This document shows positions 126 to 41,249 of a stretch of DNA of 54,598 bases, one piece after another. The stretch is from Thermodesulfobacteriota bacterium (GTDB lineage: Bacteria > Desulfobacterota > Desulfobacteria > Desulfobacterales > Desulfobacteraceae): the NCBI GenBank assembly GCA_034660495.1, contig JAYEJJ010000221.1:23549-78146 (forward strand), given 5' to 3'. Position numbers and translations under genes: made by a program. The notes under the pieces are model-generated. The model ran no database searches, was not told the origin of the DNA, and saw nothing but the letters and a program-made list of their open reading frames with translations. Each line of letters starts with the position of its first letter. Position 1 is the first letter of the stretch.

Positions 126-1813
126 AGCCCAGCAGCAAAGACACATCTCCTTTGGAAGATCTGCTGCAGGAATTTGTCAGCAACCAGGAAGACGCTTTAC
201 AACTTGACAAATCACTGGCCAGATTTTTTTCTTTTTTTATCCAGAACCTTGAACATGCAGAGGAACAGGATTTCCTCGATCAATTCAAAAATTGTCTTGA
301 AATCCTGGGCGTTGATATTGAAGACATTTCTGTGGATGAACAAGGGCTTGATATTTTAAAGCATTTACTTGTCAAAGCCGGATTTCCGGAAAAGGAAATT
401 TCAGATCTTTTTGAAGAGCTGCAGCTTGAATCAGAGGACAGTTTTGTTGCGCTTTCCGATCTGATGACGGAACTTTCAAAAATAGAAATACCACAAAGTG
501 TTAAAGACGAAGCCATCTTTTTACCTGTTTCAAGTCTTCCTTTTATCGAAACCATACTTACGGCCCTTAATGTGCCTGCAGATGTCTCAAATCAGATTAT
601 AACACCAGCTGCCCGAAAAAGAGAAGGGATAGATCTCAACACCCTGATTACAGGGCTTCAAAACCTTCAAAAACAGGCTTTTTTAACAGGTACAGATTTC
701 AGGACAGCATCTGAACAAAAAGGCGTAAAAGGTCTTTTAACCCGTCTTGGACTTGATATATCAGGCTCAGAACAAAAGGAGCTGACTCTGGAGGAATTTA
801 CTGCCGCCCTTGAAAATCTGAGAAAGGACTTTAAACAGTCCCGTGAAGAACAAGCTTTGACCAGTAAAGAACAGCCTTTGACCAGTGAAATCACCAGCGT
901 GTCCGGGAAATCCAAAACAGAACTTTTTACTGCGTTTTTGTTCAGCCTGAATAAAAATGACGCTGCAGGAACCAGCGATAAAACAGATGTGTTACCTGTC
1001 GGAGAAGGAAAGACCCCGGCGGAAACGGCAACTTTTGAGCTTCAGAGGATGTCCCGTGAAAATCAGAATAGGATTTCAGATTTATTTGCAGACCAGAATG
1101 ATCTGAAAATCAATGAAAAGAATTTTTTAAATCAGGAAAACAGCTCAAAAAAGGAAATTGAGCTGTTGCTGAGCCGGCTTGGTATTTCAGAAAAGGGCGG
1201 TCAAAAAGGGAATCCTTCTGGTTTGCAGGGAAAGGAGGGAGATGCTTATCTGTCAGGAAACCATAAAAAAGCAGATATAAAAAGCCTTGATGCAGGCCAG
1301 TTGGCAGGCGGCAGTTCCAATGAGTCTGATTTAAGCCAGGGCGGATCGAAAATTTTAAAGGGCAGGTCTGCGCCAAAACCATTGCCTGCCTACGTGACAA
1401 ACCAGGTGGAAAAAAATTTGGCCAGGGCAGTGGACCGGGGGGACAGTGAACTGAAACTTCAGCTCAAGCCCCCGGAACTGGGAAGGATTATTGTAAAAAT
1501 TGAAAATCTCGGGGACAGTCTCAAAGTTAATATTATAACGGAAAATCATGCGGCAAAGGATATCCTTGTGTCCCATGCCAATGAGCTGAAAACAAATCTT
1601 TCCGGCAGCGGTGTGGATCTGAAAAGTTTTGAGGTGGAAATGGGAAGCGATTTTAAACAGTCCATGGCCGATGCCAGGCAGCAGTCCGGACATTCCGGCT
1701 CCGGCAGGGGGAAAAAAAGAGGAATTGATTTAATCAATGAAACCGAAACTAAAGCGTCAATCAATATACAGGAAGATAAAAATCAGGATGGACAGCTTCA
1801 TTATGTGGCCTGA
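2..1813 (+). CDS. fliK: Flagellar hook-length control protein FliK. The frame is open to the left window edge, so it is probably 5'-partial; the first in-window ATG is at 17.
   Basis: C-terminal Flg_hook-type pattern (LKLQLKPPELGRIIVKIENLGDSLKVNIITENHAAKDILVSHANELKTNLSGSGVDL). It sits directly upstream of flgD-flgE. There is no stop between nt 2 and the first ATG. Confidence 0.8.
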   Translation, partial: DELLEMLKGRVKGSSGEDELLEMLKGRVKGSSGEDELLEMLKPSSKDTSPLEDLLQEFVSNQEDALQLDKSLARFFSFFIQNLEHAEEQDFLDQFKNCLEILGVDIEDISVDEQGLDILKHLLVKAGFPEKEISDLFEELQLESEDSFVALSDLMTELSKIEIPQSVKDEAIFLPVSSLPFIETILTALNVPADVSNQIITPAARKREGIDLNTLITGLQNLQKQAFLTGTDFRTASEQKGVKGLLTRLGLDISGSEQKELTLEEFTAALENLRKDFKQSREEQALTSKEQPLTSEITSVSGKSKTELFTAFLFSLNKNDAAGTSDKTDVLPVGEGKTPAETATFELQRMSRENQNRISDLFADQNDLKINEKNFLNQENSSKKEIELLLSRLGISEKGGQKGNPSGLQGKEGDAYLSGNHKKADIKSLDAGQLAGGSSNESDLSQGGSKILKGRSAPKPLPAYVTNQVEKNLARAVDRGDSELKLQLKPPELGRIIVKIENLGDSLKVNIITENHAAKDILVSHANELKTNLSGSGVDLKSFEVEMGSDFKQSMADARQQSGHSGSGRGKKRGIDLINETETKASINIQEDKNQDGQLHYVA

Positions 1814-6560: not shown

Positions 6561-7058
6561 ATGAATTTTTTAAGCCGCATAAAAGCCCCTAGAGTTTTGA
6601 TGGTCGCAGGGATAATCCTGGTTGTTCTATCAGCCTCGGGCCTGGTCTGGCATTTTTTTTTAAAGGGACATGAAGAAAATCATTCAGACAGGGCATCTTC
6701 TGCAGATATTGCTTCGTCTGATGAAGAGATTGGTCAAAAAAGGGAAGGTTTGGCTGCAGATATTATTAAGCTGGATCCCTTTAACAATATAAAACTTCAG
6801 CCCGGCGGGAATATGGATCAGCTGGACTTGGAGATCGCCCTGGAACTGGCTGACCCCGGCATGAGAAAATCGGTTGAAACCATTGTGTTTAAAATCCGTG
6901 AAGTTGTTGAAAGGGAATCGGCCAAAAAAAGCTGGATGGAATTAAGAACTCCGGCCGGGAAGCTGTCTTTGAAGTATACCCTGTTAGACAGAATTAATGG
7001 GGTGCTTTCGGAGGCAAAAATTAACAATGTCTATTTTACACATTTAATCATGAAGTGA
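6561..7058 (+). CDS. fliL: Flagellar basal-body-associated protein FliL
   Basis: N-terminal TM helix and a FliL-like pattern (IKLDPFNNIKL...LDLEIALELADP...IREVVERE...INNVYFTHLIM). Located upstream of fliM. Confidence 0.75.
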   Translation: MNFLSRIKAPRVLMVAGIILVVLSASGLVWHFFLKGHEENHSDRASSADIASSDEEIGQKREGLAADIIKLDPFNNIKLQPGGNMDQLDLEIALELADPGMRKSVETIVFKIREVVERESAKKSWMELRTPAGKLSLKYTLLDRINGVLSEAKINNVYFTHLIMK

Positions 7059-7068
7059 TTTAGAAATT

Positions 7069-8049
7069 ATGAGTGACATACTATCCCAGGATGAAGTAGA
7101 CAGTCTGCTGGCAGGACTTGATTCCGGCGATGTAGAAGCAGAAAAAGACGCAGATGCACCGGAGCCGGAAGGTATTGTTGCCTATGATTTTACAAGCCAG
7201 GACAAGGTGGTGCGGGCAAGGATGCCCACCTTTGACGTTATCAATGAACGGCTGGCCAGGGAAATCAGGGCCAGCATGTCCACGCTGCTGCAGACCAATG
7301 TAGATGTGACAGCCAATCCTCTGGATACCCTCAAGTTCTCAGAATTTGTCCGAAGTCTGCCTGTTCCCACAAGCCTTCATGTGTTCCGTATGGAGCCTTT
7401 AAGGGGGCACGGGCTGGTGGTGCTGGAGAGCCAGCTTGTTTACAACCTCATTGATACCTTTTTCGGGGGTGAAGGCTCAGGCCAGGCCAGGGTGGAGGGC
7501 AGGGAGTTTACAGCCATTGAAGAGGTAATGATCAAAAAGGTGGTGGTGGCCTGTCTTAAGGATATTGAAGTTGCCTGGTACCCCATTGAACCGGTAAAGA
7601 CCACCCTGGTCCGATCTGAAATGAACCCTCAGTTTGCCGCTGTGGTCCTGCCCACAGACCTTGTGATTGTAACGCGGTTTGAGATTGAGCTGGAGCAGGC
7701 TGCCGGCACCCTTGTCATATGTCTGCCCTATTCCATGATCGAACCGTTAAGAGCAAAGCTGGCATCAGGCTTTCAGGCTGAAACCGAGGAGATTGATCTG
7801 ACGTGGCGGACCATACTCAAGGAAATTATTCTCCAGTCTTCCGTGGATCTGCGCATACAGCTGGGCACTGCGGACATAACAGGAGAGCGCCTTATTTATA
7901 TGCAGAAAGGGGATGTGATTCAGCTGGATCATGATGCAAAGGATCCCTTGATGGGATTTGTGGGCGGGCTGCCCAAACTCAAAGGATTTGCCGGTGTAAA
8001 ACGGGGCATGCAGGCGTTTAAGATCGAAAAAACGATAATCAGAAAATAA
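7069..8049 (+). CDS. fliM: Flagellar motor switch protein FliM
   Basis: N-terminal CheY-P docking peptide MSDILSQDEVDSLLAG. FliM-sized body followed by fliN. Confidence 0.95.
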   Translation: MSDILSQDEVDSLLAGLDSGDVEAEKDADAPEPEGIVAYDFTSQDKVVRARMPTFDVINERLAREIRASMSTLLQTNVDVTANPLDTLKFSEFVRSLPVPTSLHVFRMEPLRGHGLVVLESQLVYNLIDTFFGGEGSGQARVEGREFTAIEEVMIKKVVVACLKDIEVAWYPIEPVKTTLVRSEMNPQFAAVVLPTDLVIVTRFEIELEQAAGTLVICLPYSMIEPLRAKLASGFQAETEEIDLTWRTILKEIILQSSVDLRIQLGTADITGERLIYMQKGDVIQLDHDAKDPLMGFVGGLPKLKGFAGVKRGMQAFKIEKTIIRK

Positions 8050-15373: not shown

Positions 15374-16264
15374 GTGGATCAGGCAAATGGACTGCGGCAC
15401 ATTGTAAGAAAAGGACAATTGGCAAAAAGGAAATCCCCCGGCACAAAATCTGTGCCCAGGGTTATTGCTGTGACCAGCGGCAAGGGAGGCGTCGGTAAGA
15501 CCAATCTGGTGGGTAATCTTGCCATTGCCCTGAGCCAGCGCGGTAAAAAAGTCGTGGTCCTTGATGCAGATGTGGGGCTCGGTAATATTGATATTATATT
15601 CAATCTCAGGCCCAGGTATAATATCAGCCAGGTGATCGCCGGTGAAATGAGTCTGTCTGATGTTATGGTCACCACCCGTCACGGTGTAAAAATTATTCCG
15701 GCAGGGTCAGGGTTTGCCAATCTTACTCAGCTTGCGGATGGTGAAAAGCTTAATCTACTGAACGCCTTTGAACGTCTGAGCGATACAATTGATATTGTGC
15801 TGGTTGATACTGGAGCCGGCATATCCTCCAATGTGCTGTATTTTAATTCTGCAGCCGATGAATCCATTGTTGTGGCCACAAATGAACCTACTTCCATTAC
15901 AGATGCCTATGCACTGATGAAGGTTTTATCCAGGGAATATGGAACAAGGTATTTTAAACTGGTGGTGAATATGGTAAGGTCAGATAAAGATGCAAAATTA
16001 GTTTATGGGTCATTGAGCGGCGCCCTGGACCGTTTTCTGGGAAATGTGGTGCTGGAGTATTTTGGTTTTATCGGCCATGACCCCATGATTAAAAAAGCGG
16101 TGATGAATCGAACTCCGGTTATTGATTTTGCAGGCACATCTCCTTCAGCTGCTGTGTTTAAGGATTTTGCGGAAAAACTGGTTAAATCGCCGAGAAGAAC
16201 CAATGCAGATGGGAACATCACTTTTTTTATGAAAAAATTATTTAATGCAGCAGATCAAGGTTGA
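15374..16264 (+). CDS. flhG: MinD/ParA-type flagellar number regulator FlhG (FleN)
   Basis: Deviant Walker A VTSGKGGVGKTN. GTG start with an AAGGAG RBS. Located between flhF and fliA. Confidence 0.9.
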   Translation: MDQANGLRHIVRKGQLAKRKSPGTKSVPRVIAVTSGKGGVGKTNLVGNLAIALSQRGKKVVVLDADVGLGNIDIIFNLRPRYNISQVIAGEMSLSDVMVTTRHGVKIIPAGSGFANLTQLADGEKLNLLNAFERLSDTIDIVLVDTGAGISSNVLYFNSAADESIVVATNEPTSITDAYALMKVLSREYGTRYFKLVVNMVRSDKDAKLVYGSLSGALDRFLGNVVLEYFGFIGHDPMIKKAVMNRTPVIDFAGTSPSAAVFKDFAEKLVKSPRRTNADGNITFFMKKLFNAADQG

Positions 16265-17085: not shown

Positions 17086-17111
17086 AACACAGGGGTTAAA
17101 GAGGGCCTGAA

Positions 17112-19085
17112 ATGTCTGATACGACTACAGATGACGATCTTGTCTCCCAGGATGATATTGACAATCGTCTGGATTCCGGTCAAAATACGGGTTCTGACGG
17201 GGCAGGCAAAGAAGAAGAGTTTGGAGAGCTTTCTCAGGATGATATAGACAGCCTTTTAAACGGCTCGTCCATGGGCAGCGGATCTTCAGATGATGATTCT
17301 GGTGACATGGATGACGATGATTTTGAGCTGGTTTCCCAGGATGACATAGACAGCCTTCTGGAGGAATCCTCATCCAGAGATCTGGAAGATTCATCTGATG
17401 GGCCTGACCTCATTGATTCAGAATCCATGGAAGACACTGAAGAAGATCTGATTTCCCAGGATGACATAGACAGTCTGCTGGAGGATTCATCTGCCGTTGA
17501 TCTGGAGGTGTCGTCTGCCGATTCTGATCTCAGTGATCAGGAAAGCATGGAAGATACTGAAGAAGAACTGGTTTCCCAGGATGACATAGACAGCCTGCTG
17601 GAGGGTTCGTCTGATGTTGATCTGGAATCGTCATCTGCCGATCCTGATCTCAGTGAACAGGAAAGCATGGAAGACACTGAAGAAGAACTGGTTTCCCAGG
17701 ATGACATAGACAGCCTGCTGGAGGGTTCGTCTGATGTTGATCTGGAATCGTCATCTGCCGATTCTGATCTCAGTGAACAGGAAAGCATGGAAGACACTGA
17801 AGAAGAGCGGGTTTCCCAGGATGACATAGACAGCCTGCTGGAGGATTCATCTGCTGATGATCTGGAAGTGTCATCACACGGCCCTGACCTCAGTGGTACG
17901 GAAAAGGGGAGCAGGGGACCTGAATCCGGCAATGAGGATGTGATTGACGAATCCCAGGGAATTGACATTCAGGATTGTCTGATTACCCAGGAAGTGCTGG
18001 ATCAGTTGATAAAGGAAGATGAAGAAGCTGAAAACCAGGCGGATGATGAAATAGAACCATCCCTGGAGACAGAAGCGGTTCCGGAACAGGATCAGCAGCC
18101 GGATTTAAAAGAAGAACCCGATGCACAGGTTGATTCAGAAGAAGAGCCGGATTTACAGCCTGTTTCAGGCGCAGAGACGGACGCTGAAGCAGATTCGGTT
18201 CCACTGGAAAATCAGGGGGAAGATGTCAGCCAGAATGATATTGATGCACTGCTGGATGATCCCGATGATGACATGACTGATGATGAGGAAAGCGGAAAAT
18301 CACTGATTTCTCATAAGGATATAGACTCTCTGCTGGGAAGCACTGAGGAGGATGATGAAGATTTTCTCGGCGATGTTGATTCAGATGGTTCCTTTGGTGA
18401 CACTTCACTGGGGCTTGATGATGACGATCAGGAAATTGAACCTGATGACGCAGGTGAAGAGTTTTATCCCTACGATGAAGCAGAAAAAAGTGATCAGGTT
18501 GTATTGGAGGCTGGAGAGGACACTCAGGTCGAGAAAGACACAGACGTCGGGAAAGAAAAAGAAAAACGTACTGGAGAAAAAAAATTCTCGTTAAAAAAAG
18601 TATTGGTTTTTGCGTCCATATGCATTGTTTTATCTGTTTCAGGTGCGTCTTATTATATTTTAAACGCCATGAAAGATAAAAGCGAGTCTGAAAATCAGGT
18701 TGTTTTGGAAGAACCGGTACAGTCAGACGGGCCTGAGGTGGAAACCGTGGAGATTGATCTTCGGAAAACTGCAAATCTGCCTGATTCCGGCACTGTGGAC
18801 CTGAATGGGTTTTTTGTGCTTTCTCCAACTGAAGAGAGCGGGTTTGTCTATGTTTCCGCCGACCTTTCAATAGATTATTCCCGTGGCAGAGCCCTTTCCG
18901 AGATAAATAAACATATGGCCCTTTACAGGGATATAATTTATGATGCCATCAGTCATGCCATTGCCAGGGATACCAATGCAGTGTCTGAAAAAGAGCTGCT
19001 TTCTGCAGTAAAAAAAGCGCTGAACAGCGCGCTTCCTGACAACTATATCGAAAAGGTCAGTTTTACACGGTTTAAAACTGGATAG
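17112..19085 (+). CDS. FliL-domain membrane protein with a long acidic N-terminal arm bearing 9-10 SQDDIDSLL (CheY-docking-like) repeats
   Basis: RBS agaggg. Repeated [LIV]xSQDDIDSLL motifs. One TM helix (VLVFASICIVLSVSGASYYILNA). The C-terminal ~130 aa match the FliL pattern (FFVLSP...ADLSIDYS...YRDIIYDAI...IEKVSFTRF). Confidence 0.65.
   Translation: MSDTTTDDDLVSQDDIDNRLDSGQNTGSDGAGKEEEFGELSQDDIDSLLNGSSMGSGSSDDDSGDMDDDDFELVSQDDIDSLLEESSSRDLEDSSDGPDLIDSESMEDTEEDLISQDDIDSLLEDSSAVDLEVSSADSDLSDQESMEDTEEELVSQDDIDSLLEGSSDVDLESSSADPDLSEQESMEDTEEELVSQDDIDSLLEGSSDVDLESSSADSDLSEQESMEDTEEERVSQDDIDSLLEDSSADDLEVSSHGPDLSGTEKGSRGPESGNEDVIDESQGIDIQDCLITQEVLDQLIKEDEEAENQADDEIEPSLETEAVPEQDQQPDLKEEPDAQVDSEEEPDLQPVSGAETDAEADSVPLENQGEDVSQNDIDALLDDPDDDMTDDEESGKSLISHKDIDSLLGSTEEDDEDFLGDVDSDGSFGDTSLGLDDDDQEIEPDDAGEEFYPYDEAEKSDQVVLEAGEDTQVEKDTDVGKEKEKRTGEKKFSLKKVLVFASICIVLSVSGASYYILNAMKDKSESENQVVLEEPVQSDGPEVETVEIDLRKTANLPDSGTVDLNGFFVLSPTEESGFVYVSADLSIDYSRGRALSEINKHMALYRDIIYDAISHAIARDTNAVSEKELLSAVKKALNSALPDNYIEKVSFTRFKTG
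17330..17900. repeat. 120-bp tandem repeat (~4.5 units) within the acidic FliL-like gene
   Basis: Phase-locked units begin at 17341, 17461, 17581, 17701 and 17821 (atgacatagacag...). Units 17581-17700 and 17701-17820 differ at only a few bases. Confidence 0.9.
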
Positions 19086-19099
19086 GAGGTGGTGTTTGC

Positions 19100-19420
19100 A
19101 TGACAACCATACCCGGACACAATATAGTCATTCAGCAGTCAGGGGCATTGCATGAGGCCATACACCATGTAAAACCCAATGCACCCCTGCCTGAACAGCT
19201 GGCATACCATCAGGCAGCACGGGAGGCCCTTGAAAAAAGCAGTGTACAGGAAACTGAAAAGCCGGAAAAAGCAAAGCAGAAAAAGGAAAAAGCCATAGAG
19301 GAAAGAGAAGCACGCAGGGAAAGGGAACGGCAGAAAAGAAATGCTGAGAAAAAGAAAAAAAAATCAGAAAAGGATAAAACAGCCGATTTTCCAGGGAGTC
19401 TGCTTAATACCACTGTATGA
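19100..19420 (+). CDS. Hypothetical Lys/Glu-rich small protein (106 aa)
   Basis: AGGAGG RBS. Stop overlaps the next start (ATGA). I recognise no family. Confidence 0.5.
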   Translation: MTTIPGHNIVIQQSGALHEAIHHVKPNAPLPEQLAYHQAAREALEKSSVQETEKPEKAKQKKEKAIEEREARRERERQKRNAEKKKKKSEKDKTADFPGSLLNTTV

Positions 19421-20058
19421 TTGAATTGTTTTCCATTGAATTCTGGATCTGTATACAGCTGTTTGTCGATCTTGTTTTTGCCGCTCTTTTGTTTATATTT
19501 GTAAAAAGGGTGGGTAAAGCGTTGAAAAACAGACCAGAAGCCGAGGACTTAAGTTTCGGGTCTGATCCAGGGTCAAAACTTAGGTCTAAGCTGGACAGCT
19601 ATCCTGCAGAAAAAGCGGCAGAGGAGATTATTGGCCTGCTGGAGCCCCTTGTTGCTGAAGCAGAACGTGCGGCGAAAATCTTTGACGGTCAGATAAAGGA
19701 AAAGAAGAAATTGATAAACGGGGTCAATGATGCCCTGGATTCAAGAATTATAAGTATCAATCTTCTTCTTTCACGGGCTGAGGCCCTTTACAGATCCCAG
19801 AAGGAATCCAGTCCACTTGAAGCATGCCAGCGGCCAAACGATTTTTCAAATGCTCCTTTTAATCCCTCTTCCAGCAGCCGCCCTTCAGACCTGGGTAAAA
19901 AAGGGGATGTATTTGACCAGCAGAAGCGTATTATTGATTTATACACCCAGGGGTTCGGCATTGAGGCCATAGCCTCAAAGCTGTCCATGCCCAAGGGGGA
20001 AGTTCAGCTGGTGGTCAGTCTTAAACAGAAATTTGTCAATATGGAAAATCAAAAGTGA
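19417..20058 (+). CDS. Hypothetical membrane-anchored protein with a C-terminal HTH-like segment (possibly DUF2802-like)
   Basis: N-terminal TM helix (FWICIQLFVDLVFAALLFIFV). The C-terminus IIDLYTQGFGIEAIASKLSMPKGEVQLVVSL resembles a short HTH. Translationally coupled on both sides. Confidence 0.5.
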   Translation: MIELFSIEFWICIQLFVDLVFAALLFIFVKRVGKALKNRPEAEDLSFGSDPGSKLRSKLDSYPAEKAAEEIIGLLEPLVAEAERAAKIFDGQIKEKKKLINGVNDALDSRIISINLLLSRAEALYRSQKESSPLEACQRPNDFSNAPFNPSSSSRPSDLGKKGDVFDQQKRIIDLYTQGFGIEAIASKLSMPKGEVQLVVSLKQKFVNMENQK

Positions 20059-21284
20059 TCAAGGGCATTGATATTTTATCTTCTGACGTGAAGCTCAGAC
20101 CTGAAGCCAATGAAAAATCAGTGCTTTCTTTTTTAAAAAAAAACGATATTGTAGAGGCCAGGGTGCTGAAACTCATCCCCCCGTCAAAGGCTGAACTTCT
20201 CATTGCAGGGAAAAAAGTAGTGGCAGACACCAGTGTTTTTCTAAAACAGGGGGACACCATTCAGCTGAAGTTTACACCTGAAAAAAACCTTCAGATTTTA
20301 AAGCTTGTCTCTCCTTCAAACAGGGACGTCCCATCTGCTGCTGCCCTGCTTGGCGCTTTAACAAAGGCCGGTCCCTTTTCCCATTTACAGAATCTGTTTG
20401 GTGGGCTCACAGATGTGACAAAAACGTCCATCCAGGAAAATTTGCAGTCTATCCCTTTTTTTTCAGAAATGAAAGCAGATCCATCCCTTATGGGGGAAAG
20501 AGCCGGACAGACGGGAAAGATGCTGCAGCAGCTTGGGGAGAAACTCCTTGAACTGGCCTTAAAATCTGAACATGCAGACAAGGGTTTTCTGCCCCGGGTT
20601 CTAAATCAAAGCGGTCTGCTTCACGAAAGAAATCTGTCCCGCCTTTTATTTAACCCGCCCTCTGTTTTGGGGAAGGAATCCTTAGCTGCGGGGAAAGATG
20701 TTCCTGTTTCCGGGAAAGAACTGCCTGAAAAATTTTCTAATCTGGATCTCAAAGCCTTTGTTTTAAAATCCCTGGCAGGAGATACGGGAAAAGATCCAGT
20801 CCTGATCCGGTCTTTAAAGGGGTTTGCTGAAACCATTGAAAAATTTCAGGTTTTAAATCATCACACCTCAGATACCAATAGATATTTGATTCCCTTTCCT
20901 GTTTTTGCCGATGATTTACTGGGGTCAGGACAGCTTTTCCTGGATCTGGGCAAAGCCGCCAGGGAAAGAGACAAAAAGGAAAGCCGTCTGATAAAACTCT
21001 CCATTCTTTTGAATATGTCTTTTCTGGGTGCCGTCAGGGTGGACGGGTCTGTTCTGAACAAGGAGATTTCAGGGGTTTTCAAGGTCTCCAGTGAGGACAT
21101 GGTTAAATTTGTAAAATCACATATTTCAAATCTTAAAAAAGCCCTTTTAAAACAGGGGTTTACCCTGACCAGCATGGAATGCAGAATGGCCGCTTCGGTA
21201 GAGCTTGAAGAAAATGCGCTTTTTAACATGGTTTTAAAAGAGGATCAGGACAGGGCAGACCAGGGTGTGGATATAATTATATGA
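20055..21284 (+). CDS. Hypothetical protein with a FliK-C-terminal (Flg_hook)-like region
   Basis: GTG start overlaps the upstream stop. The segment LIPFPVFADDLLGSGQLFLDLGK...LSILLNMSFLGAVRVDGSVLNKEISGVFKVSSEDMVKFVKSHISNLKKALLKQGF resembles the hook-length-control C-terminal domain. Weak call. Confidence 0.4.
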   Translation: MIKGIDILSSDVKLRPEANEKSVLSFLKKNDIVEARVLKLIPPSKAELLIAGKKVVADTSVFLKQGDTIQLKFTPEKNLQILKLVSPSNRDVPSAAALLGALTKAGPFSHLQNLFGGLTDVTKTSIQENLQSIPFFSEMKADPSLMGERAGQTGKMLQQLGEKLLELALKSEHADKGFLPRVLNQSGLLHERNLSRLLFNPPSVLGKESLAAGKDVPVSGKELPEKFSNLDLKAFVLKSLAGDTGKDPVLIRSLKGFAETIEKFQVLNHHTSDTNRYLIPFPVFADDLLGSGQLFLDLGKAARERDKKESRLIKLSILLNMSFLGAVRVDGSVLNKEISGVFKVSSEDMVKFVKSHISNLKKALLKQGFTLTSMECRMAASVELEENALFNMVLKEDQDRADQGVDIII

Positions 21285-21811
21285 AAACCAGGGGGATTCA
21301 AATCGGGATTGGTTCTTTTGCTCTGTGCACAGGTGCTTTGATTTATCTTGTGGACCGGCCTCCAGAATCCACCTATTTTGTGGATCAGTTTTTTTACAAA
21401 TTTACTTTATATGGAATTATTCCAAATATTTTTGGAAGTGCCCATAAAAATCTGGCATCTTTTCTGCACGTGTTTTCCTTTGTAATGATATCAGCAGGTA
21501 TTTCAGCGGATTCAAAAACCGGATATTTAATGACAGCCCTGGGCTGGGCCGCGGTTAATACGGCTTTTGAAGTCGGTCAATATTTTGACACGGCTGCTGC
21601 CGCCATGGTTCCGGCATGGTTTGAAAATTATCCCCTGCTTGACGCAGTGGACAAATATTTTACAGCGGGCTGTTTTGATATCTTTGATATTGCAGCTGTT
21701 TTTGCAGGCGCAGCAGCTGGTTTTTTTGTACTGGTTGGTATAGACCTTTATCTTGTAAGATCAGGGGGAGAGCTCAAACTATTTGGAGAAAAAAGGATTT
21801 TAAATGAATAA
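21281..21811 (+). CDS. Hypothetical small polytopic membrane protein (176 aa, ~4 TM)
   Basis: Hydrophobic segments throughout. Start overlaps the upstream stop and the stop overlaps the next start. Confidence 0.55.
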   Translation: MKTRGIQIGIGSFALCTGALIYLVDRPPESTYFVDQFFYKFTLYGIIPNIFGSAHKNLASFLHVFSFVMISAGISADSKTGYLMTALGWAAVNTAFEVGQYFDTAAAAMVPAWFENYPLLDAVDKYFTAGCFDIFDIAAVFAGAAAGFFVLVGIDLYLVRSGGELKLFGEKRILNE

Positions 21812-23459
21812 GATAAGTGCGTTAAAAATCATGCGGGGGGCAGCTGGATGTTTTGCGGCTGTTCTGGGGATGGCAGCCATTATTGCAACCAGTGGAGACA
21901 GCGGCGGCGGGTCTGGCGATGCAGCACCGCCTGCAACCGGCGTGGTAATTGATATGCCGGCTGACGGCAGTGCCTATGTTCACGGCTGCACTGTCAGTTT
22001 TATCAGTAAATTATCGGATCCGGCCGATGGTGAGACCTATACGTATTCCTGGATTTCAGACCAGGACGGGGAGCTTGGTACGACCACCAATGTCACCTCC
22101 AATGCCCTTTCTTCAGGTCCCCATGAAATTATTCTGACGGTAACAGACGCGGCCGGTAATACCGTGGGCTCTGATTCGGTTAACATTACCATTGGCGAAG
22201 CAGATACCTCTTCTGATGCCGCATCAAATACCCCGCCCAATGCAGACATTACCTCACCTTCAACCCTTTTGTCCTTTAATACAGGGGAAACCATTACCTT
22301 TGAAGGAACAGGAACAGATGCTGAAGACGGCACCCTGACCGGAGATGCCCTTGTGTGGAGTTCAGACCGGGACGGCGGCCTTGGTACAGGCGCTTCCCTT
22401 TCCAATGCCAGCCTAAGTGAAGGCGAGCACACCATTACCCTGACGGCTTCAGACACCAGCGGCAGTTCAGCCATGGCGTTTATCATTATCACGGTGGGGT
22501 CTTCGGCCAATGCACCGGCGGTTATCATTTCAAGTCCTGCAGAAAGTCCTTCAGGCACCTATGAGGCCAAAGCCGGGGATACCATCAATTTTATCGGCAG
22601 TGCATCAGACTTTGACGGATCTCCCATTGCAGATGAAAATCTTGAATGGATTTCTTCAAGGGATGGAAAAATTGGGACCGGCAGTGTATTGTCCCTTGAC
22701 ACCAGCAATATCCCTTTGAAAAATGCGCCCTTGAAAGAGGGTGACCATACCATTTATCTCAGAGCCTCTGGCAGCGCAGGGACAGGTCAGGCATCCATCG
22801 TAATTACCCTTGTGAATACAGGCCCTGCTGCAGACATATCCAATCCACCCAAAACCTGTCCAGATACCAATGCCCTGTGCCAGACCTTTGCCCCGGGGGA
22901 ATGGATTGATTTTCATGGAACTGCTTTGGACAGTGAAGACGGAGATCTTTCCGGAGACAGCCTTGAATGGAGATCCCATATTGACGGGCTTCTGGGAACA
23001 GGCGAGCGCCTCAGCATTAATACAGACAATGTCCAGGCCCTGAACAATTCCCCCATGACCCATGGGGAGCATATCATCACCTTGATGGCAAAGGACAGCT
23101 GGGGCTCAACTGGAACAGATTCGATTATCATTAATATCGGGGAAAACACTCCGCCTGTACCTTCCATTACCTATCCTGAAGGGGATTATACCAGTCCGGC
23201 ATCCACCGGGTATGTTATTTTTTTCGGAAAGGCCGAAGACGCGGAAGAGGGGTCCCTGACCAGTGATACCCTGGAATGGTTTCGCTCGGATCAGGCCAAT
23301 ACAATCACACCCGGGGAAGCACCCGGATCAGGGGTGCTGACCTCCTCTGTAAGTCTTGATATTTCATCGTTTGAAGCAGGCATCCATACCATTTCCCTTG
23401 TGGCCACGGACAGCAATGGGGAAAAAGGGGTTGTCACACGCAGTATAACCGTTCCATAG
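21804..23459 (+). CDS. Secreted protein with five tandem Ig-like (PKD/Big-like) repeats
   Basis: N-terminal signal/anchor (AAGCFAAVLGMAAIIATSG). The ~93-aa repeat occurs five times with the motif D-EDG-L-G-L-W-S-DG-LGTG...LS-G-H-ITL-A-D-G. Confidence 0.7.
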   Translation: MNKISALKIMRGAAGCFAAVLGMAAIIATSGDSGGGSGDAAPPATGVVIDMPADGSAYVHGCTVSFISKLSDPADGETYTYSWISDQDGELGTTTNVTSNALSSGPHEIILTVTDAAGNTVGSDSVNITIGEADTSSDAASNTPPNADITSPSTLLSFNTGETITFEGTGTDAEDGTLTGDALVWSSDRDGGLGTGASLSNASLSEGEHTITLTASDTSGSSAMAFIIITVGSSANAPAVIISSPAESPSGTYEAKAGDTINFIGSASDFDGSPIADENLEWISSRDGKIGTGSVLSLDTSNIPLKNAPLKEGDHTIYLRASGSAGTGQASIVITLVNTGPAADISNPPKTCPDTNALCQTFAPGEWIDFHGTALDSEDGDLSGDSLEWRSHIDGLLGTGERLSINTDNVQALNNSPMTHGEHIITLMAKDSWGSTGTDSIIINIGENTPPVPSITYPEGDYTSPASTGYVIFFGKAEDAEEGSLTSDTLEWFRSDQANTITPGEAPGSGVLTSSVSLDISSFEAGIHTISLVATDSNGEKGVVTRSITVP

Positions 23460-23567: not shown

Positions 23568-23686
23568 GCATATGGATTGAGTCCTTCCTCTTATAGTTAG
23601 AAGGTAAGATTGGTATCAGTTCACTTGCGAACATCTATAATCGGCTTTTCCATAAAAATTTGATAATCGAGTAAAAGGAAATGAAT

Positions 23687-26600
23687 ATGCCAGAACATCT
23701 CATGACGTTTTTAAAAAAAAGAACAGCCTGCTTTGCCTGCTTTTTTGTTTTTTTTATAATGACTTCTGTGCCAGCCTTTGGTACTGAACCTGTGGTTACC
23801 ATAACCTCTCCGGATGATGGCTCTGACGCTTTTTACGGAAACCGTGTGGATTTTGTGGGCAGTGCTGTTGATGATACAGACGGGGATTCCATTGCCTCTT
23901 ACAGCTGGACATCTGACCTTGACGGTGCGCTTTCCACAGATCCGACCTTTCATTCAAACAATTTAAGTGTGGGCGAGCATTCGATTAAGCTCTTTGCAAC
24001 AGATTCAGGATCTGAAACCGGGTTTGCCCAAATTTCCTTAATCATTAAGAACAATAATCCCACGGCTAGAATAATTTCTCCCTATGGAGGACGAATCTTT
24101 GACTATGGCCAAAACATCCCTTTCACAGGAAAAGGAACTGATATAAAGGACGGAATACTCTTCGGTAACAGTATGTCATGGTCTTCAGATATTGACGGTG
24201 TGATCGGTACCGGGCAGAATTTCGGCACCACTAACCTTTCCAGTGGCTCACACACCATTACCCTGACAGTCACAGATTCCAACGGCGGCACAGGCACTGC
24301 CACAGTGGTTATACAAGTTAGAAATACCGTTCCGGAAACCGAAATAAGTGCTCCAGCAGACGGTTCAAATTTTGCCTTTGGTGAACTGATTACGTTTCAG
24401 GGAAAAGCGGTTGATCCTGAACAAGGAAATTTGATCGGGGATGCCCTTGTCTGGACCTCCAGCCAGGGAGATCCAATGGGAACCGGAGAAAATCCTGGCA
24501 TTGATACCCTGTCCAGTGGCAGCCATGTCATCACCCTGACAGCCACGGACAGCGGCGGCAACAGCTCTTCAGATGATATCACCATATCCATCGGCAATGC
24601 CCCGCCCCATGCAGAAATCACAGCCCCTGAAGACGGAAGTTCCTTTGGATACAAGGAATTCATTACCTTTAAAGGAATTGGATCAGATACGGAAGACGGT
24701 GATCTTGCTGGAAGTGCTCTGGTGTGGACCCGTTCAGCAGCAGCAGGAGAAGATGTTGAAATAGGAACTGGAAAAACACTTTCAGTTAATAATTTTCCCA
24801 GCGGTACCCATACCATTGTCCTGACAGTTACGGATACAGAGGGTCTGTACGCAGAAGACAGCATTGCCCTTATAGTGGGGAATGCCCTTCCATCAGCCGA
24901 GATAATCGCTCCCCTTAATGACAGCGCCCATGTGTTTGGTACGGCCATTCAATTTGAAGGAAGTGCCGTTGATCCTGAGGATGGATCTCTGACAGACAGC
25001 AGCCTGTCCTGGTCATCCTCAAAGGACGGAGTGATCGGATCAGGGGCCAGTGTGTCCCGAAGCGACCTGTCTGTGGGCAGCCATGTCATCACCTTGGCAG
25101 CCAAGGACAGCGAAGGCAAAGCAGCGGAAGCATCCATCAATATCACAGTGGGAGATCAGGCACCCGATAGTATTTCCATTGACACGCCCATGGACGGGGC
25201 AAGTTTTTATCTCGGTGAATTTATCGAATTTAAAGGAATTGCTTCAGACAAGGAGGACGGGTCCTTAAAAGGAGCTTCCCTGGTCTGGACGTCGGATTTT
25301 GAAAAAACATCATTGAATCCAGCAGGCACCATAGGGGAAGGAAATTCCTTTTCAGTAAGCAATCTGAAAAAAGGAGAACACCTGATAACCCTGACGGCAA
25401 CAGACAGCAGTGGTGCGTCTGTTTCCACCTTTATTGTGATAGAGGTACTCAATCAGCTTCCAGTTCCCCGGATCACAGCGCCTTTAAACAACGCGTCCTT
25501 TGTTCAGGGGGAGGAAGTCAAATTTTCGGCCAGTGTCACCGATGCCGAGGATGTGCAGCTTACCGGCAGCGCCCTTGTCTGGAAGTCAGATATAGATGAT
25601 GTGATCGGTACGGGTGTGACCCCGTCAGCTGTTCTTTCATCTGGAAAACACACCATCACCCTTATGGCCATTGATGCACAGGGTGACAGTGCAGAAGACA
25701 GCATTTCCCTGACCGTTGAAGCCGGACAGGAAAATGACCCATTAGCCCTTGAAAAAGACAATGTGTCAGTTAATTTCATGTCTCTGTGTCTGGATGCCAC
25801 TGAAACCATAAGTATCACCGGCGGATTCCTGCCCTTAAGAGCCAATATAAAGCAGTATTCTCCAAAAATTGTTGAATCTGAGATCACCCATCGCATATTG
25901 AAAATCAAACCTTTGGAAACCGGGACCACAACACTTGAGGTCCGGGATCACAATGAGCATGTCATTTCTTTGACGGTTGAGGTGCTGCCCGAATCAGGCG
26001 AATTTTCCACTGCCAGCGCAGGACCGGATCAAAATGTGATGGAATTTGAAACCGTGACCCTTGACGGGTCTTTTTCAGTGCCGGGCAATTCCGGGATCAC
26101 ATCCTGGAACTGGCAGCAGATCAGCGGCAGCGTAAATGTGGTTCTGTCAGATCCTTCTGCTGAAATAACGACCTTTGTGGCCCCTTGTGCGGATTTTGTC
26201 TCATCATTGACCTTTCAGCTGACCATAACAGACAATAAGGGAAATAAAAGTACAGACGAAATAACAGTGAGTGTTGGGGACAACGGCATAGAACAATTTC
26301 CAGATCTGGCGGCCACCTTTAAAAGTGCCGATGGGTCCCATAATCTGGGCATGAACATAGTTGGACAAGGGGATCTGGTTCTGCTCAAGGGCCGGTATTC
26401 GGAGTTTATTTCAGAACAGTACAACAGGCCGGGCAATATGATTTACGGGCTGATACAGTGCAGAATCAAGGTGCCCTCTCCAGGGGACAGGGCTGATTTT
26501 ATTATTTATCTGCCTCAGGGCCTGGCCCAGGACTACAGCTGCTACAAGTACAATGATGCAAAGGGGTGGTATGGGGTCACAGAAAACATCATGTTTGATG

Positions 26601-26800
26601 CCGCCAGGCAAAAAGCGTATATTTCCATTGTGGACGGCGGTCCCTGTGATGATGACGGCGCTGCAGACGGGATCATCACGGATCCGCTGACCTTTGGCAC
26701 CCCGCCCATGGAAAACACCGACCCGCCTGCAGCAGAGGAAGATAGCGGAGGTGGCGGCGGCGGTGGAGGTGGCGGCTGCTTTTTATCCACCCTTTTCTAA
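23687..26800 (+). CDS. Large secreted protein: seven Ig-like repeats, a PKD-like domain and a C-terminal domain ending in a poly-Gly-Cys tail
   Basis: Signal peptide (ACFACFFVFFIMTSVPAFG/TEP). Seven copies of the repeat seen in the upstream gene. PKD-like segment ASAGPDQNV...TLDGS...W.WQQISG...FQLTITDNKGN. Ends DSGGGGGGGGGGCFLSTLF. ATG 23687 has better RBS spacing than 23681. Confidence 0.8.
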   Translation: MPEHLMTFLKKRTACFACFFVFFIMTSVPAFGTEPVVTITSPDDGSDAFYGNRVDFVGSAVDDTDGDSIASYSWTSDLDGALSTDPTFHSNNLSVGEHSIKLFATDSGSETGFAQISLIIKNNNPTARIISPYGGRIFDYGQNIPFTGKGTDIKDGILFGNSMSWSSDIDGVIGTGQNFGTTNLSSGSHTITLTVTDSNGGTGTATVVIQVRNTVPETEISAPADGSNFAFGELITFQGKAVDPEQGNLIGDALVWTSSQGDPMGTGENPGIDTLSSGSHVITLTATDSGGNSSSDDITISIGNAPPHAEITAPEDGSSFGYKEFITFKGIGSDTEDGDLAGSALVWTRSAAAGEDVEIGTGKTLSVNNFPSGTHTIVLTVTDTEGLYAEDSIALIVGNALPSAEIIAPLNDSAHVFGTAIQFEGSAVDPEDGSLTDSSLSWSSSKDGVIGSGASVSRSDLSVGSHVITLAAKDSEGKAAEASINITVGDQAPDSISIDTPMDGASFYLGEFIEFKGIASDKEDGSLKGASLVWTSDFEKTSLNPAGTIGEGNSFSVSNLKKGEHLITLTATDSSGASVSTFIVIEVLNQLPVPRITAPLNNASFVQGEEVKFSASVTDAEDVQLTGSALVWKSDIDDVIGTGVTPSAVLSSGKHTITLMAIDAQGDSAEDSISLTVEAGQENDPLALEKDNVSVNFMSLCLDATETISITGGFLPLRANIKQYSPKIVESEITHRILKIKPLETGTTTLEVRDHNEHVISLTVEVLPESGEFSTASAGPDQNVMEFETVTLDGSFSVPGNSGITSWNWQQISGSVNVVLSDPSAEITTFVAPCADFVSSLTFQLTITDNKGNKSTDEITVSVGDNGIEQFPDLAATFKSADGSHNLGMNIVGQGDLVLLKGRYSEFISEQYNRPGNMIYGLIQCRIKVPSPGDRADFIIYLPQGLAQDYSCYKYNDAKGWYGVTENIMFDAARQKAYISIVDGGPCDDDGAADGIITDPLTFGTPPMENTDPPAAEEDSGGGGGGGGGGCFLSTLF

Positions 26801-27029: not shown

Positions 27030-27302
27030 ATGAAGCACAAAAAAAGAAAAAAAGCAGTGGCTCTGGCCTATAATCCTGAAAAGGCCGCTGCTCCCAAGGT
27101 TCTGGCTAAAGGAGAAGACAGGATTGCTGAAAAAATTCTCGAAATTGCCAGAAAATACGATATTCCGGTGAAGGATGATCCAGATCTGGTGGAAGTATTG
27201 TCAAAACTTGATATTGACGAAGAGATCCCTCCTGAAATTTACGCGGCTGTTGCTGAACTGCTCGCCTTTATTTATTCTTTGAATTCAAAAAAAGGGGCCT
27301 GA
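27030..27302 (+). CDS. FlhB C-terminal-domain-like small protein (YlqH/FhlB-type)
   Basis: 90 aa. AVALAYNPEKAAAPKVLAKGEDRIAEKILEIARKYDIPVKDDPDLVEVL matches the post-cleavage half of the FlhB/EscU C-terminal domain. Confidence 0.85.
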   Translation: MKHKKRKKAVALAYNPEKAAAPKVLAKGEDRIAEKILEIARKYDIPVKDDPDLVEVLSKLDIDEEIPPEIYAAVAELLAFIYSLNSKKGA

Positions 27303-35150: not shown

Positions 35151-35537
35151 ATGGAGTTCTTTTACGCTGTTTTCACAAAAGAAGATGATACTGTTTTGGT
35201 TTCGATTCCAGATGTGGAAATCTGCGAGACCTTCGGTAAATCATGGGATGAAGCCTATGAGATGGGGGTGGATGCATTGGCCGCTTGTTTGTCAGAACCG
35301 GAAACAATCGTTCATCCAAAATCAACCCGTGAAAAACTACAGGCTGACAATCCGGAATCTGAAATTGTGCCCATTCCGGTAGATGAGTCTATCAGGAAAA
35401 AATATGCAAAAACCAAACGGTTTAATGTGATTTTCCCTGAAGATTTGTTGGTTCGGGTAGATGAGTATCGAGCCGGTGCAGGAATGAAGCGCTCTCAACT
35501 ACTGGCAGAAGCAGCGGAGCAATATTTAAAAGCATAA
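35151..35537 (+). CDS. hicB: HicB-family antitoxin with a C-terminal ribbon-helix-helix
   Basis: N-terminus FFYAVFTKEDDTVLVSIPDVEICETFGKSWDEAYEMGVDALAACL (HicB fold pattern). C-terminus KRFNVIFPEDLLVRVDEYRAGAGMKRSQLLAEAAEQYL (RHH/CopG-like). Confidence 0.8.
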   Translation: MEFFYAVFTKEDDTVLVSIPDVEICETFGKSWDEAYEMGVDALAACLSEPETIVHPKSTREKLQADNPESEIVPIPVDESIRKKYAKTKRFNVIFPEDLLVRVDEYRAGAGMKRSQLLAEAAEQYLKA

Positions 35538-41165: not shown

Positions 41166-41249
41166 TGCCCGCTTTGTTCATGGGGATCGGTTTGATGGGA
41201 TATGACCGGTGCCGTTTATGGCTGGCCACAGGTAATATGCGAGGTTACA

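What the first reader, a model, noticed from the sequence alone, without database searches (positions are those of the whole stretch)
17112..19085. Second FliL-domain protein with a multivalent array of FliM/CheZ-type CheY-P docking peptides
Seen in the sequence: a 657-aa ORF with its own RBS starts 27 nt after fliA. Residues ~1-490 are extremely acidic. They contain the peptide [LIV]xSQDDIDSLL nine to ten times: DLVSQDDIDNRL, ELSQDDIDSLLNG, ELVSQDDIDSLLEE, DLISQDDIDSLLED, ELVSQDDIDSLLEG (twice), RVSQDDIDSLLED, DVSQNDIDALLDD, LISHKDIDSLLGS, plus a degenerate LITQEVLDQLI. One TM helix follows, then a ~130-aa periplasmic region with the same pattern as the canonical FliL at 6561-7058. The repeated peptide is almost the same as the FliM N-terminus in this window (MSDILSQDEVDSLLAG). 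Established knowledge: the FliM N-terminal LSQxEIDALL peptide and the CheZ C-terminal SQDQVDDLLDSLGF peptide are the docking sites for phosphorylated CheY, and FliL sits next to the stator/rotor. Inference: this could be a motor-proximal membrane tether holding many CheY-P molecules, acting as a sink, buffer or local concentrator. I do not recognise this architecture as characterised.
Basis: partly seen in the sequence, partly recalled or inferred. Interest (0 to 1): 0.85.

Follow-up and report, generated by a model that had tools for sequence, protein, structure and literature searches.

The report
FliL paralog carrying repeated FliM-type docking peptides
A second FliL-like membrane protein in this flagellar gene cluster carries nine copies of the short peptide that the motor switch protein FliM uses to catch the chemotaxis signal CheY-P; it belongs to a conserved family with no description that I could find, and probably holds FliM-binding regulators next to the motor.

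Summary
ORF 17112..19085 encodes 657 aa. A cytoplasmic, very acidic region of about 490 aa (184 D/E against 20 K/R in residues 1-505) holds nine copies of [LIV]xSQ(D/N/K)DIDxLL and one degenerate copy. A single TM helix and a periplasmic domain follow. That domain is FliL by Pfam, NCBIfam, a PDB profile search and Foldseek. A profile built from array motifs finds only FliM N-termini in the PDB below E 0.1. Resemblance to the CheZ C-terminus is weak.

The architecture is a conserved family: 189 of 205 retrieved proteins, mostly Desulfobacterales, carry 2-16 motifs. The gene order flhF-flhG-fliA-X-small protein-FipA-like-FliK-like is the same in seven loci. AlphaFold predicts each motif as a short helix in a disordered chain.

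The best reading is a FliL-anchored, multivalent docking array for proteins that bind the FliM N-terminus. CheY-P is the first candidate. FlhG, which also binds this motif and is encoded two genes upstream, is a serious rival or second client. No binding was tested. I found no paper describing such proteins. I class it as a new variant of known parts, with high interest.

The parts
17112..19085 (+). Whole ORF (657 aa): FliL paralog with a cytoplasmic motif array
   Evidence: homologues
17100..17105 (+). Shine-Dalgarno-like AGAGGG, 6 nt before the ATG
17139..17171 (+). Motif 1, LVSQDDIDNRL (aa 10-20); an N-terminal motif is conserved at this position across the family
   Evidence: helix 13-21
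17226..17258 (+). Motif 2, ELSQDDIDSLL (aa 39-49); S41, Q42, D44, I45 and D46 are invariant in the family alignment
17328..17875 (+). 120-nt tandem DNA repeat (4.6 copies) encoding motifs 3-7 (aa 73-83, 113-123, 153-163, 193-203, 233-243) with acidic and serine-rich spacers
17937..18047 (+). Conserved central element VIDESxxIDIQDCLITQEVLDQLI... (aa 276-312). It includes the degenerate tenth motif and is predicted as a longer helix with pLDDT about 80
18222..18254 (+). Motif 8, DVSQNDIDALL (aa 371-381), conserved in position
18303..18335 (+). Motif 9, LISHKDIDSLL (aa 398-408), followed by the conserved EDEDxLGD
18492..18509 (+). Conserved DQVVLE element about 30 aa before the TM helix; function unknown
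18591..18668 (+). Single TM helix (aa 494-519). The segment before it, KEKEKRTGEKKFSLKK, is basic, which places the N-terminus in the cytoplasm by the positive-inside rule
18789..19079 (+). Periplasmic FliL (SPFH-like) domain, aa 560-656
7078..7110 (+). The FliM N-terminal motif ILSQDEVDSLL, for comparison. It is the only other occurrence in a real coding frame of the window
15374..16264 (+). flhG (MinD/ParA-type ATPase, N-terminal DQAxxLR), a candidate client of the motif
19100..20058 (+). Two co-conserved downstream genes: a 106-aa K/E-rich protein, and a 213-aa protein with a TM helix and a DUF6115/DUF2802-like domain (FipA-like)

Best explanation
The gene encodes a paralog of the flagellar protein FliL. 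Its short cytoplasmic N-terminus has been replaced by a disordered, strongly acidic tail of about 490 aa. The tail displays nine (family range 2-16) short helical docking motifs of the FliM N-terminal 'EIDAL' type.

The TM helix and the periplasmic FliL domain anchor the protein in the inner membrane, most likely at or beside the motor and stator, where canonical FliL sits. The tail acts as a multivalent capture array for proteins that dock on the FliM N-terminus. The most likely client is phosphorylated CheY, which the array would hold beside the C ring as a local buffer, decoy or concentrator, so setting switching threshold and kinetics.

**Shown:** the architecture, the FliL fold, the motif's likeness to the FliM N-terminus, conservation across the family, and operon membership.
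**Inferred:** localisation at the motor, CheY-P binding, and the effect on behaviour.
For: - **Motif identity.** A profile of 70 array motifs, with FliM sequences excluded, hits only FliM N-termini in the PDB below E 0.1: 4iga_B, the T. maritima FliM N-terminal peptide, at E 0.01, and Salmonella FliM residues 3-20 at E 0.012. FliM's EIDAL motif is the CheY docking site (PMC6946799).
- **Selection on the motif.** Family members are only 30-36% identical, but the core [LIV]-S-Q-D-D-I-D-x-L-[LM] is nearly fixed over 644 copies while the flanks vary. Copy number varies from 2 to 16, yet 189 of 205 retrieved proteins keep at least two copies plus a TM helix 130-200 aa from the C-terminus.
- **Structure prediction.** Each of the nine motifs is a short helix with a local pLDDT rise in a chain otherwise below 50. 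This is the usual signature of a fold-on-binding peptide.
- **FliL anchor.** Pfam gives 27.9 bits against a cut-off of 24.6. NCBIfam FliL PRK08455 is matched over positions 6-179 of 182. The profile hits PDB FliL chains 9hmf_O and 7sgn_A. The top 11 Foldseek hits are all solved FliL structures, TM-score on target 0.59-0.78. FliL forms rings at stator units (PMC8794807 and PMC8931381, listed).
- **Operon.** The gene is tightly packed with neighbouring genes in a flagellar cluster: a 26-nt gap after fliA, a 14-nt gap before the next gene, then 4-nt overlaps. The same gene order is found in seven loci, some from distant members.
- **Independent precedent.** Genuine FliM proteins of a Vulcanimicrobiota MAG and one unnamed metagenome carry five tandem copies of the motif at their N-terminus.
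Against: - No binding was tested or modelled.
- The same motif is reported to bind FlhG. The conserved neighbours are flhF, flhG and a FipA-like gene, not che genes.
- The array motif differs systematically from the FliM motif of the window and of D. toluolica: DDID against DEVD. This could mean a different affinity or a different client.
- Localisation at the motor is extrapolated from canonical FliL, which is encoded separately at 6561..7058.
- HubP/FimV polar landmark proteins carry repeats with a related D-[LI]-D-A-L-L core, so a general polar-hub role is possible.
Confidence: 0.5

Rival explanations
1. The array is a docking platform for FlhG. It recruits or sequesters the MinD-type ATPase FlhG at the membrane or pole, together with the FipA-like protein and FlhF. 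It would then control flagellar number and placement rather than chemotactic switching. This may hold together with CheY-P binding, as a dual client.
For: - The EIDAL motif of FliM/FliY is reported as necessary and sufficient for FlhG interaction (10.1101/2022.04.21.489128; PMC12826062).
- The gene order flhF-flhG-fliA-X-small protein-(TM + DUF6115/DUF2802-like) is conserved in seven loci.
- FipA, a TM + DUF2802 protein, is a partner of FlhF (PMC11620751).
- The architecture (periplasmic anchor, TM helix, acidic repeat region) parallels HubP, which has FlhG and FlhF as clients (PMC12918733). HubP repeats share the D-[LI]-D-A-L-L core.
Against: - The full S-Q-containing motif scores far better against FliM N-termini than against HubP repeats: 14-24 bits against 4.5-10.7 bits.
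- FlhG binding to EIDAL has been shown in only a few species, and direct FliM-FlhG binding was not detected by size-exclusion chromatography in V. alginolyticus.
- Nine or more sites per molecule seems a lot for a low-abundance regulator.
- A FliL anchor points to the motor and stator rather than to the bare pole.
Confidence: 0.25
2. The protein is a general polar or motor hub whose motifs bind some other, unidentified client. Candidates include the co-conserved basic 106-aa protein, a ZomB/MotV-like motor effector, or ParA-like ATPases. The resemblance to the FliM N-terminus would then reflect a shared type of acidic amphipathic helix, not a shared ligand.
For: - Similar arrays occur on unrelated scaffolds: TPR giants, zinc-ribbon proteins of Nitrospinota, and Lentisphaerae proteins encoded next to MptE-like genes.
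- Further conserved cytoplasmic elements exist that are not EIDAL-like: the central helix aa 276-312, EDEDxLGD and DQVVLE.
- A strongly basic small protein is always encoded immediately downstream.
Against: - The motif matches FliM N-termini position by position, including L/I-S-Q before the helix.
- Real FliM proteins with tandem copies exist.
Confidence: 0.15
3. The tail is a non-specific polyanionic disordered region, for example an entropic spacer or a cation or proton buffer at the stator, and the motif has no ligand.
For: - The composition is extremely acidic, with a net charge of about -164 over aa 1-505.
- Spacer sequences are poorly conserved.
Against: A non-specific role does not explain near-invariance of a 9-10 residue pattern, with fixed Q, I and L positions, over hundreds of copies at 30% overall identity. 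It also does not explain the predicted helices.
Confidence: 0.05

Closest known systems
Canonical FliL (Pfam PF03748; solved structures 7sgn H. pylori, 6ahq/6ahp Vibrio, 9hmf_O C. jejuni)
   Same: - A single TM helix with the N-terminus in the cytoplasm.
- A periplasmic SPFH-like domain of the same fold.
- Encoded in a flagellar cluster.
   Different: - The cytoplasmic N-terminus is about 493 aa, against about 15 aa in the window's own canonical FliL (165 aa, 6561..7058), and carries nine docking motifs.
- It is a second copy; the canonical FliL is kept next to fliM.
- It scores below the NCBIfam equivalog cut-offs.
MotF, the FliL paralog of Sinorhizobium meliloti (PMC9541039, listed)
   Same: A second FliL-family protein, in addition to canonical FliL, with a distinct role at the motor.
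   Different: The abstract seen mentions no motif array. I did not compare sequences, so no relationship beyond the shared FliL family is claimed.
FliM N-terminal 'EIDAL' peptide (LSQxEIDALL), the docking site for CheY-P and, in some species, FlhG
   Same: The same residue pattern, position by position, and a predicted short helix.
   Different: - Present in 9 copies (2-16 in the family) inside a FliL paralog, instead of once at the N-terminus of a C-ring protein.
- D instead of E at position +3 in essentially all array copies, and I instead of V at +4 compared with the FliM of the window and of D. toluolica.
HubP/FimV polar landmark proteins
   Same: - A periplasmic anchor domain, a TM helix and a long acidic cytoplasmic region with imperfect repeats (PMC12918733).
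- HubP repeats share the D-[LI]-D-A-L-L core.
- FlhF and FlhG are clients.
- JGI auto-annotation names many family members 'FimV'.
   Different: - No LysM domain and no C-terminal FimV/TPR domain.
- Opposite topology: the array lies N-terminal of the TM helix.
- The anchor is FliL.
- HubP repeats lack the S-Q part and score only 4.5-10.7 bits on the motif profile.
CheZ C-terminal CheY-binding peptide
   Different: It scores 0.7 bits on the array-motif profile, against 24 bits for the E. coli FliM N-terminus. No CheZ chain appeared in the PDB search at E up to 10.

Membership tests
FliL (PF03748) | Sequence match to the FliL family model over the periplasmic domain | tested here: met
   - Pfam: 27.9 bits against a cut-off of 24.6 for aa 481-657 scanned alone. 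In the full-length protein it is 23.5 bits, just under the cut-off.
- NCBIfam PRK08455: E 4e-10 over model positions 6-179 of 182.
- PDB FliL chains: E 1.7e-6 and 1.4e-4.
FliL (PF03748) | FliL/SPFH-like fold of the periplasmic domain | tested here: met
   AF2 model with pLDDT above 90 in the domain. The top 11 Foldseek PDB hits are FliL structures, TM-score on target 0.59-0.78; stomatin SPFH domains follow.
FliL (PF03748) | Single TM helix with a cytoplasmic N-terminus, encoded among flagellar genes | tested here: met
   One helix, aa 494-519, preceded by a basic stretch. The neighbours are flagellar genes.
FliL (PF03748) | Short cytoplasmic N-terminus (canonical form) | tested here: not met
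   493 aa precede the TM helix. The protein is a FliL-family paralog, not a canonical FliL.
FliL (PF03748) | Assembles at or around stator units and modulates motor output | not testable with these tools
   Needs cryo-ET, localisation studies and genetics.
FliM N-terminal EIDAL docking motif | Consensus L-S-Q-x-E-I-D-A-L-L | tested here: met
   The motif profile's only PDB hits below E 0.1 are FliM N-termini. The window's FliM scores 14 bits and the E. coli FliM N-terminus (from memory) 24 bits. Position +3 is D rather than E.
FliM N-terminal EIDAL docking motif | Located once, at the extreme N-terminus of FliM or FliY | tested here: not met
   Nine internal copies on a FliL paralog. However, FliM proteins with five tandem copies exist.
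FliM N-terminal EIDAL docking motif | Binds CheY-P (and FlhG in FlhF/FlhG-containing species) | not testable with these tools
Needs AlphaFold-Multimer, ITC or pull-downs.
HubP/FimV polar landmark | Periplasmic LysM domain and C-terminal FimV/TPR domain | tested here: not met
   Pfam and NCBIfam give only FliL.
HubP/FimV polar landmark | TM helix plus a long acidic cytoplasmic region with imperfect repeats | tested here: met
   A related repeat core occurs in Shewanella HubP, P0214.
CheZ C-terminal CheY-binding peptide | Sequence likeness to SQDQVDDLLDSLGF | tested here: not met
No CheZ chain appears among the PDB hits.

The most novel reading that the evidence does not exclude
Multivalent arrays of the FliM N-terminal docking peptide form a general, unrecognised layer of motor control. 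Arrays of this kind sit on several scaffolds: tethered to a FliL paralog in Desulfobacterales, placed on FliM itself in a Vulcanimicrobiota MAG, and in related form on HubP-like and other scaffolds. In this reading they build a dense reservoir of CheY-P, or of CheY-P and FlhG in competition, around the motor. The reservoir would reshape chemotactic signalling through titration-based thresholds, buffering or memory, and could couple it to the control of flagellar number.
Probability: 0.3. Interest if true: 0.85.

Novelty: new variant of a known kind. Interest (0 to 1): 0.72.

Why it matters
- CheY-P is thought to act by diffusing to single FliM N-terminal tethers on the C ring. A conserved membrane protein displaying 5-16 extra copies of that tether next to the motor would add a new element to signal processing at the motor, as a buffer, a decoy or a concentrator.
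- If FlhG is the client, it would instead link motor assembly to the counting of flagella.
- It gives a FliL paralog a concrete and testable cytoplasmic function.
- It suggests a ligand class for the so far unexplained acidic repeats of HubP-type polar hubs.
- The family is widespread in sulfate-reducing Desulfobacterales. Some members come from named organisms with deposited genomes: Desulfobacula toluolica, Desulfatiferula olefinivorans and Desulfobotulus.

Tried and rejected
- **Related loci.** With the single protein it returned only two close loci. Synteny was therefore taken from the look-up of encoding contigs.
- **Comparison with the canonical FliL.** hhalign of the family profile against the single canonical FliL of the window gave only a 20-residue match with probability 6%. 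This is uninformative, because the template is a single sequence. Membership rests on Pfam, NCBIfam, the PDB profile search and Foldseek instead.
- **PDB with one repeat unit.** phmmer with one 40-aa repeat unit found nothing. A profile of 70 motifs was needed.
- **Nitrospinota proteins.** hhalign of the family profile against the Nitrospinota zinc-ribbon protein P0129 aligned only the TM helix. I do not claim a FliL domain for those proteins.
- **Promoters and terminators.** No sigma-28 consensus promoter was found. Sigma-70 promoter-like sites were at chance level; terminator-like sites were 16 against 9.5 +/- 3.2 expected, and none lies on the + strand between these genes. The gene is best read as part of the flhA...fliK-like operon.
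- **Literature.** Searches for the peptide strings, 'EIDAL motif', 'CheY-binding motifs' and FliL+CheY+repeats found no description of multi-motif proteins. The library covers open-access papers only.
- **Complex prediction.** Prediction of peptide with CheY or FlhG was not attempted.
- **Artefact rejected.** The ORF is not a low-complexity artefact. There are 224 homologues at E up to 0.001 with the same architecture, conserved synteny and a confidently folded C-terminal domain.
Full report
**1. The observation**

ORF 17112..19085 (+) encodes 657 aa. It starts 26 nt after the fliA stop codon (TAA at 17083-17085), and AGAGGG lies 6 nt upstream of the ATG.

The protein has nine strict copies of [LIV]xSQ(D/N/K)DID(S/A/N)(L/R)L, with the S at aa 12, 41, 75, 115, 155, 195, 235, 373 and 400. 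A degenerate CLITQEVLDQLI lies at aa 289-300. Residues 1-505 contain 184 D/E and 20 K/R.

Chance cannot produce this. In 20,000 composition-preserving shuffles of aa 1-490, no motif match appeared. In a six-frame scan of the whole 54.6-kb window, the pattern occurs only in this ORF and at the FliM N-terminus (MSDILSQDEVDSLLAG), apart from one chance match in a non-coding frame.

Five copies come from a 120-nt tandem repeat, 17328..17875, with 4.6 copies at 88% match. The other four lie in unique sequence and use different codons.

**2. The membrane anchor is a FliL domain**

- In the full-length protein the Pfam FliL hit is just under threshold: 23.5 against 24.6 bits. When aa 481-657 are scanned alone it passes, at 27.9 bits, and 9 of 22 family members also match.
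- NCBIfam FliL model PRK08455 is matched end to end (positions 6-179 of 182, E 4e-10). The score, 39.6 bits, is close to that of the window's canonical FliL, 44.6 bits.
- A profile of the family's C-termini hits PDB FliL chains 9hmf_O (E 1.7e-6) and 7sgn_A (E 1.4e-4).
- An AF2 model has mean pLDDT 80.8, above 90 in the periplasmic domain. It shows one long TM helix, a linker and an alpha/beta domain.
- The 11 best Foldseek matches in the PDB are all FliL structures (C. jejuni, H. pylori, Vibrio; TM-score on target 0.59-0.78). Stomatin SPFH domains follow.
- The stretch before the TM helix is KEKEKRTGEKKFSLKK, so the acidic region should be cytoplasmic, as the N-terminus of canonical FliL is. 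This follows from the positive-inside rule and is an inference.
- The canonical FliL is present separately at 6561..7058, directly upstream of fliM. This protein is therefore a FliL paralog.

**3. It is a conserved family, and selection acts on the motif**

- A word-indexed search found 224 homologues, typically 30-36% identical. Where sources name them, they come from Desulfobacterales: Desulfobacula, Desulfobacter and Desulfamplus.
- An exhaustive phmmer search with aa 1-260, and a search seeded with a distant member, extended the family. New members include Desulfatiferula olefinivorans, Desulfobotulus and MAGs labelled Thermodesulfobacteriota.
- Of 205 retrieved proteins, 189 have at least two motifs and a TM helix 130-200 aa from the C-terminus. 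Motif number ranges from 2 to 16, with a mode of 5-7.
- Over 644 copies the core is nearly fixed. The search pattern allowed alternatives at several positions, yet Q at +1 (H and E allowed), D at +3 (E allowed) and I at +4 (L, V and M allowed) are each essentially 100%. The flanks are only D/E-rich.
- The first two motifs, the last two motifs and a central element are conserved in position. The middle block expands and contracts: nine motifs here against five in the closest relative, which is 66% identical.
- Other conserved cytoplasmic elements are VIDESxxxDxxDCLITQExxDxLI, EDEDxLGD after the last motif, and DQVVLE before the TM helix.
- Full-length AF2 predicts each of the nine motifs as a short helix starting at Q/D. 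Local pLDDT rises to 57-74 in a chain otherwise below 50. The central element is a longer helix with pLDDT about 80. This pattern is typical of peptides that fold on binding.

**4. What the motif is**

- A profile built from 70 array motifs, with FliM sequences excluded, was searched against all PDB sequences. The only hits below E 0.1 were two FliM N-termini: 4iga_B, the T. maritima FliM N-terminal peptide chain (E 0.01), and Salmonella FliM residues 3-20 (E 0.012). The next hits were at E of 0.3 or more and were unrelated.
- Scored locally with the same profile, the results were as follows:

| Sequence | Score (bits) |
|---|---|
| FliM of this window | 14.0 |
| D. toluolica FliM | 11.6 |
| HubP repeats | 4.5-10.7 |

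- The motif is therefore of the FliM N-terminal ('EIDAL') type.
- FliM of this window and of D. toluolica read SQDEVD, whereas the arrays read SQDDID. This difference is systematic and unexplained.

**5. Context**

- The gene sits in a large flagellar cluster: fliK, flgD, flgE, fliL, fliM, fliN, fliOPQR, flhB, flhA, flhF, flhG, fliA, X, and onwards.
- The block flhA-flhF-flhG-fliA-X is followed by a protein of about 100 aa, a protein with a TM helix and a DUF6115 domain, and a FliK-like protein. The same order is found in D. toluolica, two uncultured Desulfobacter genomes, a JGI contig, Desulfatiferula and a distant 801-aa member with 16 motifs.
- Gaps are 26 nt and 14 nt, followed by 4-nt overlaps, so the genes are probably co-transcribed. 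No sigma-28 consensus was found. Sigma-70 promoter-like sites are at chance level, and terminator-like sites are 16 against 9.5 +/- 3.2 expected.
- The DUF6115 protein (27.5 bits; a weak DUF2802 hit of 19 bits) has the architecture of FipA: an N-terminal TM helix, a coiled region and a C-terminal domain. FipA is a partner of FlhF at the cell pole (PMC11620751).
- The window contains no che genes.

**6. Mechanism**

Established knowledge, as stated in the papers read, is this:
- CheY binds the N-terminal EIDAL motif of FliM to control switching (PMC6946799).
- FliL forms rings associated with stator units (PMC8794807 and PMC8931381).

From this I infer that the protein is a membrane-anchored, multivalent docking array for proteins that bind the FliM N-terminus.

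I rank CheY-P first, at about 0.5, for three reasons. The motif matches FliM over its whole length, including the L/I-S-Q part. CheY binding is the universal function of that peptide. Genuine FliM proteins with five tandem copies also exist, in a fliE...fliM-fliN operon of a Vulcanimicrobiota MAG.

Motif starts lie 27-40 residues apart within the repeat blocks. This should allow several CheY molecules to bind one chain at once (inference).

The consequence could be sequestration (a decoy that raises and sharpens the switching threshold), buffering, or local concentration and hand-over to FliM. The data do not separate these possibilities.

**7. Rivals**

- **FlhG as the client (about 0.25, and not exclusive of CheY).** It is favoured by the conserved flhF-flhG...FipA-like neighbourhood and by the parallel with HubP. 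HubP/FimV proteins have a periplasmic anchor, a TM helix and acidic imperfect repeats, with FlhF and FlhG among their clients. The function of their repeats is not known (PMC12918733).
- **Link to HubP repeats.** A search seeded with a soluble motif-array protein retrieved a Shewanella FimV/HubP protein. Its repeats read ITEGDDLDALLSGFDEE, so they share the D-[LI]-D-A-L-L core but lack S-Q. JGI auto-annotation calls many members of the present family 'FimV'. However, the family has no LysM or FimV/TPR domain.
- **Another client, or a general hub role (about 0.15).** Related arrays occur on unrelated scaffolds: a TPR giant with 15 copies, zinc-ribbon proteins of Nitrospinota, and Lentisphaerae proteins encoded next to MptE-like genes.
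- **A purely non-specific polyanion (about 0.05).** This does not explain the conservation of the motif.

**8. Novelty**

Both parts, FliL and the EIDAL peptide, are known, and FliL paralogs with distinct roles are known (MotF, PMC9541039). I found no paper that describes a protein with several EIDAL motifs, fused to FliL or otherwise. The library searched holds open-access papers only.

Source annotations for the family are 'hypothetical', 'FliL family' or 'FimV'. I class it as a new variant of a known kind. CheY-P binding and motor proximity remain inferences, the CheZ likeness is weak, and FlhG was overlooked.

Noticed in passing
window 19417..20058 (+): A 213-aa protein with an N-terminal TM helix, a coiled region and a C-terminal DUF6115 domain (27.5 bits; weak DUF2802 hit of 19 bits). 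This is the architecture of FipA, the FlhF-interacting pole determinant of gamma-proteobacteria. It is always encoded two genes after the motif-array protein.
   Followed up: partly
window 19100..19420 (+): A 106-aa protein with no family hit, conserved across the loci. It has the N-terminus MTT[VI]PGHN..QQSG, a strongly basic K/E-rich middle and the C-terminus G.LLDT. Being basic and encoded directly after a protein of about -164 net charge, it could be a partner of that protein.
   Followed up: partly
L009 7001..8530 (Vulcanimicrobiota MAG) and protein P0199: Genuine FliM proteins (PF02154 + PF01052, 509 aa) with five tandem EIDAL-type motifs before the FliM domain. P0204 (L009) lies in a fliE-flgB-flgC-fliF-fliG-fliH-fliI-fliM-fliN operon; the context of P0199 was not examined.
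   Followed up: partly
proteins P0214 (Shewanella FimV/HubP) and P0219: [quoted passage not shown] The function of these repeats is not known in the papers read.
   Followed up: partly
L010 8001..11003 and L011 8001..9728: Soluble proteins with 8 to about 25 S-Q-x-E-[LI]-D-A-L-[LI] motifs and non-acidic spacers. P0211 is from a Lentisphaerae MAG; P0141 has no source name. Both are encoded directly after, and overlapping, a roughly 700-aa MptE-like (PF01973) gene.
   Followed up: no
window 17..1813 and 20055..21284 (+); 27030..27302 (+): Two FliK-like hook-length-control proteins lie in one cluster: 598 aa and 409 aa, both with a Flg_hook hit. There is also a 90-aa protein that matches only the C-terminal domain of FlhB.
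   Followed up: no
window 3020..5842, 36891..41165, 41202..46337 (+): Unusually large axial proteins: FlgE-like of 940 aa, FlgK-like of 1424 aa, and a 1711-aa protein with a flagellin N-terminal domain plus hexapeptide (LbH) repeats.
   Followed up: no
window 21804..23459 and 23681..26800 (+): Two PKD/Ig-domain-rich proteins (551 and 1039 aa) are inserted in the flagellar cluster between the FliK-like gene and the FlhB-C-like gene. This insertion is absent from the D. toluolica locus.
   Followed up: no
window 35151..35537 (+): A HicB-like antitoxin gene lies between flgJ-like/rod-binding and flgN.
   Followed up: no
window 17937..18047 and 18492..18509 (+): Family-conserved cytoplasmic elements of the target that are not EIDAL-like: the central helix VIDES...DCLITQE..DQLI (pLDDT about 80) and DQVVLE before the TM helix. 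Their partners are unknown.
   Followed up: partly
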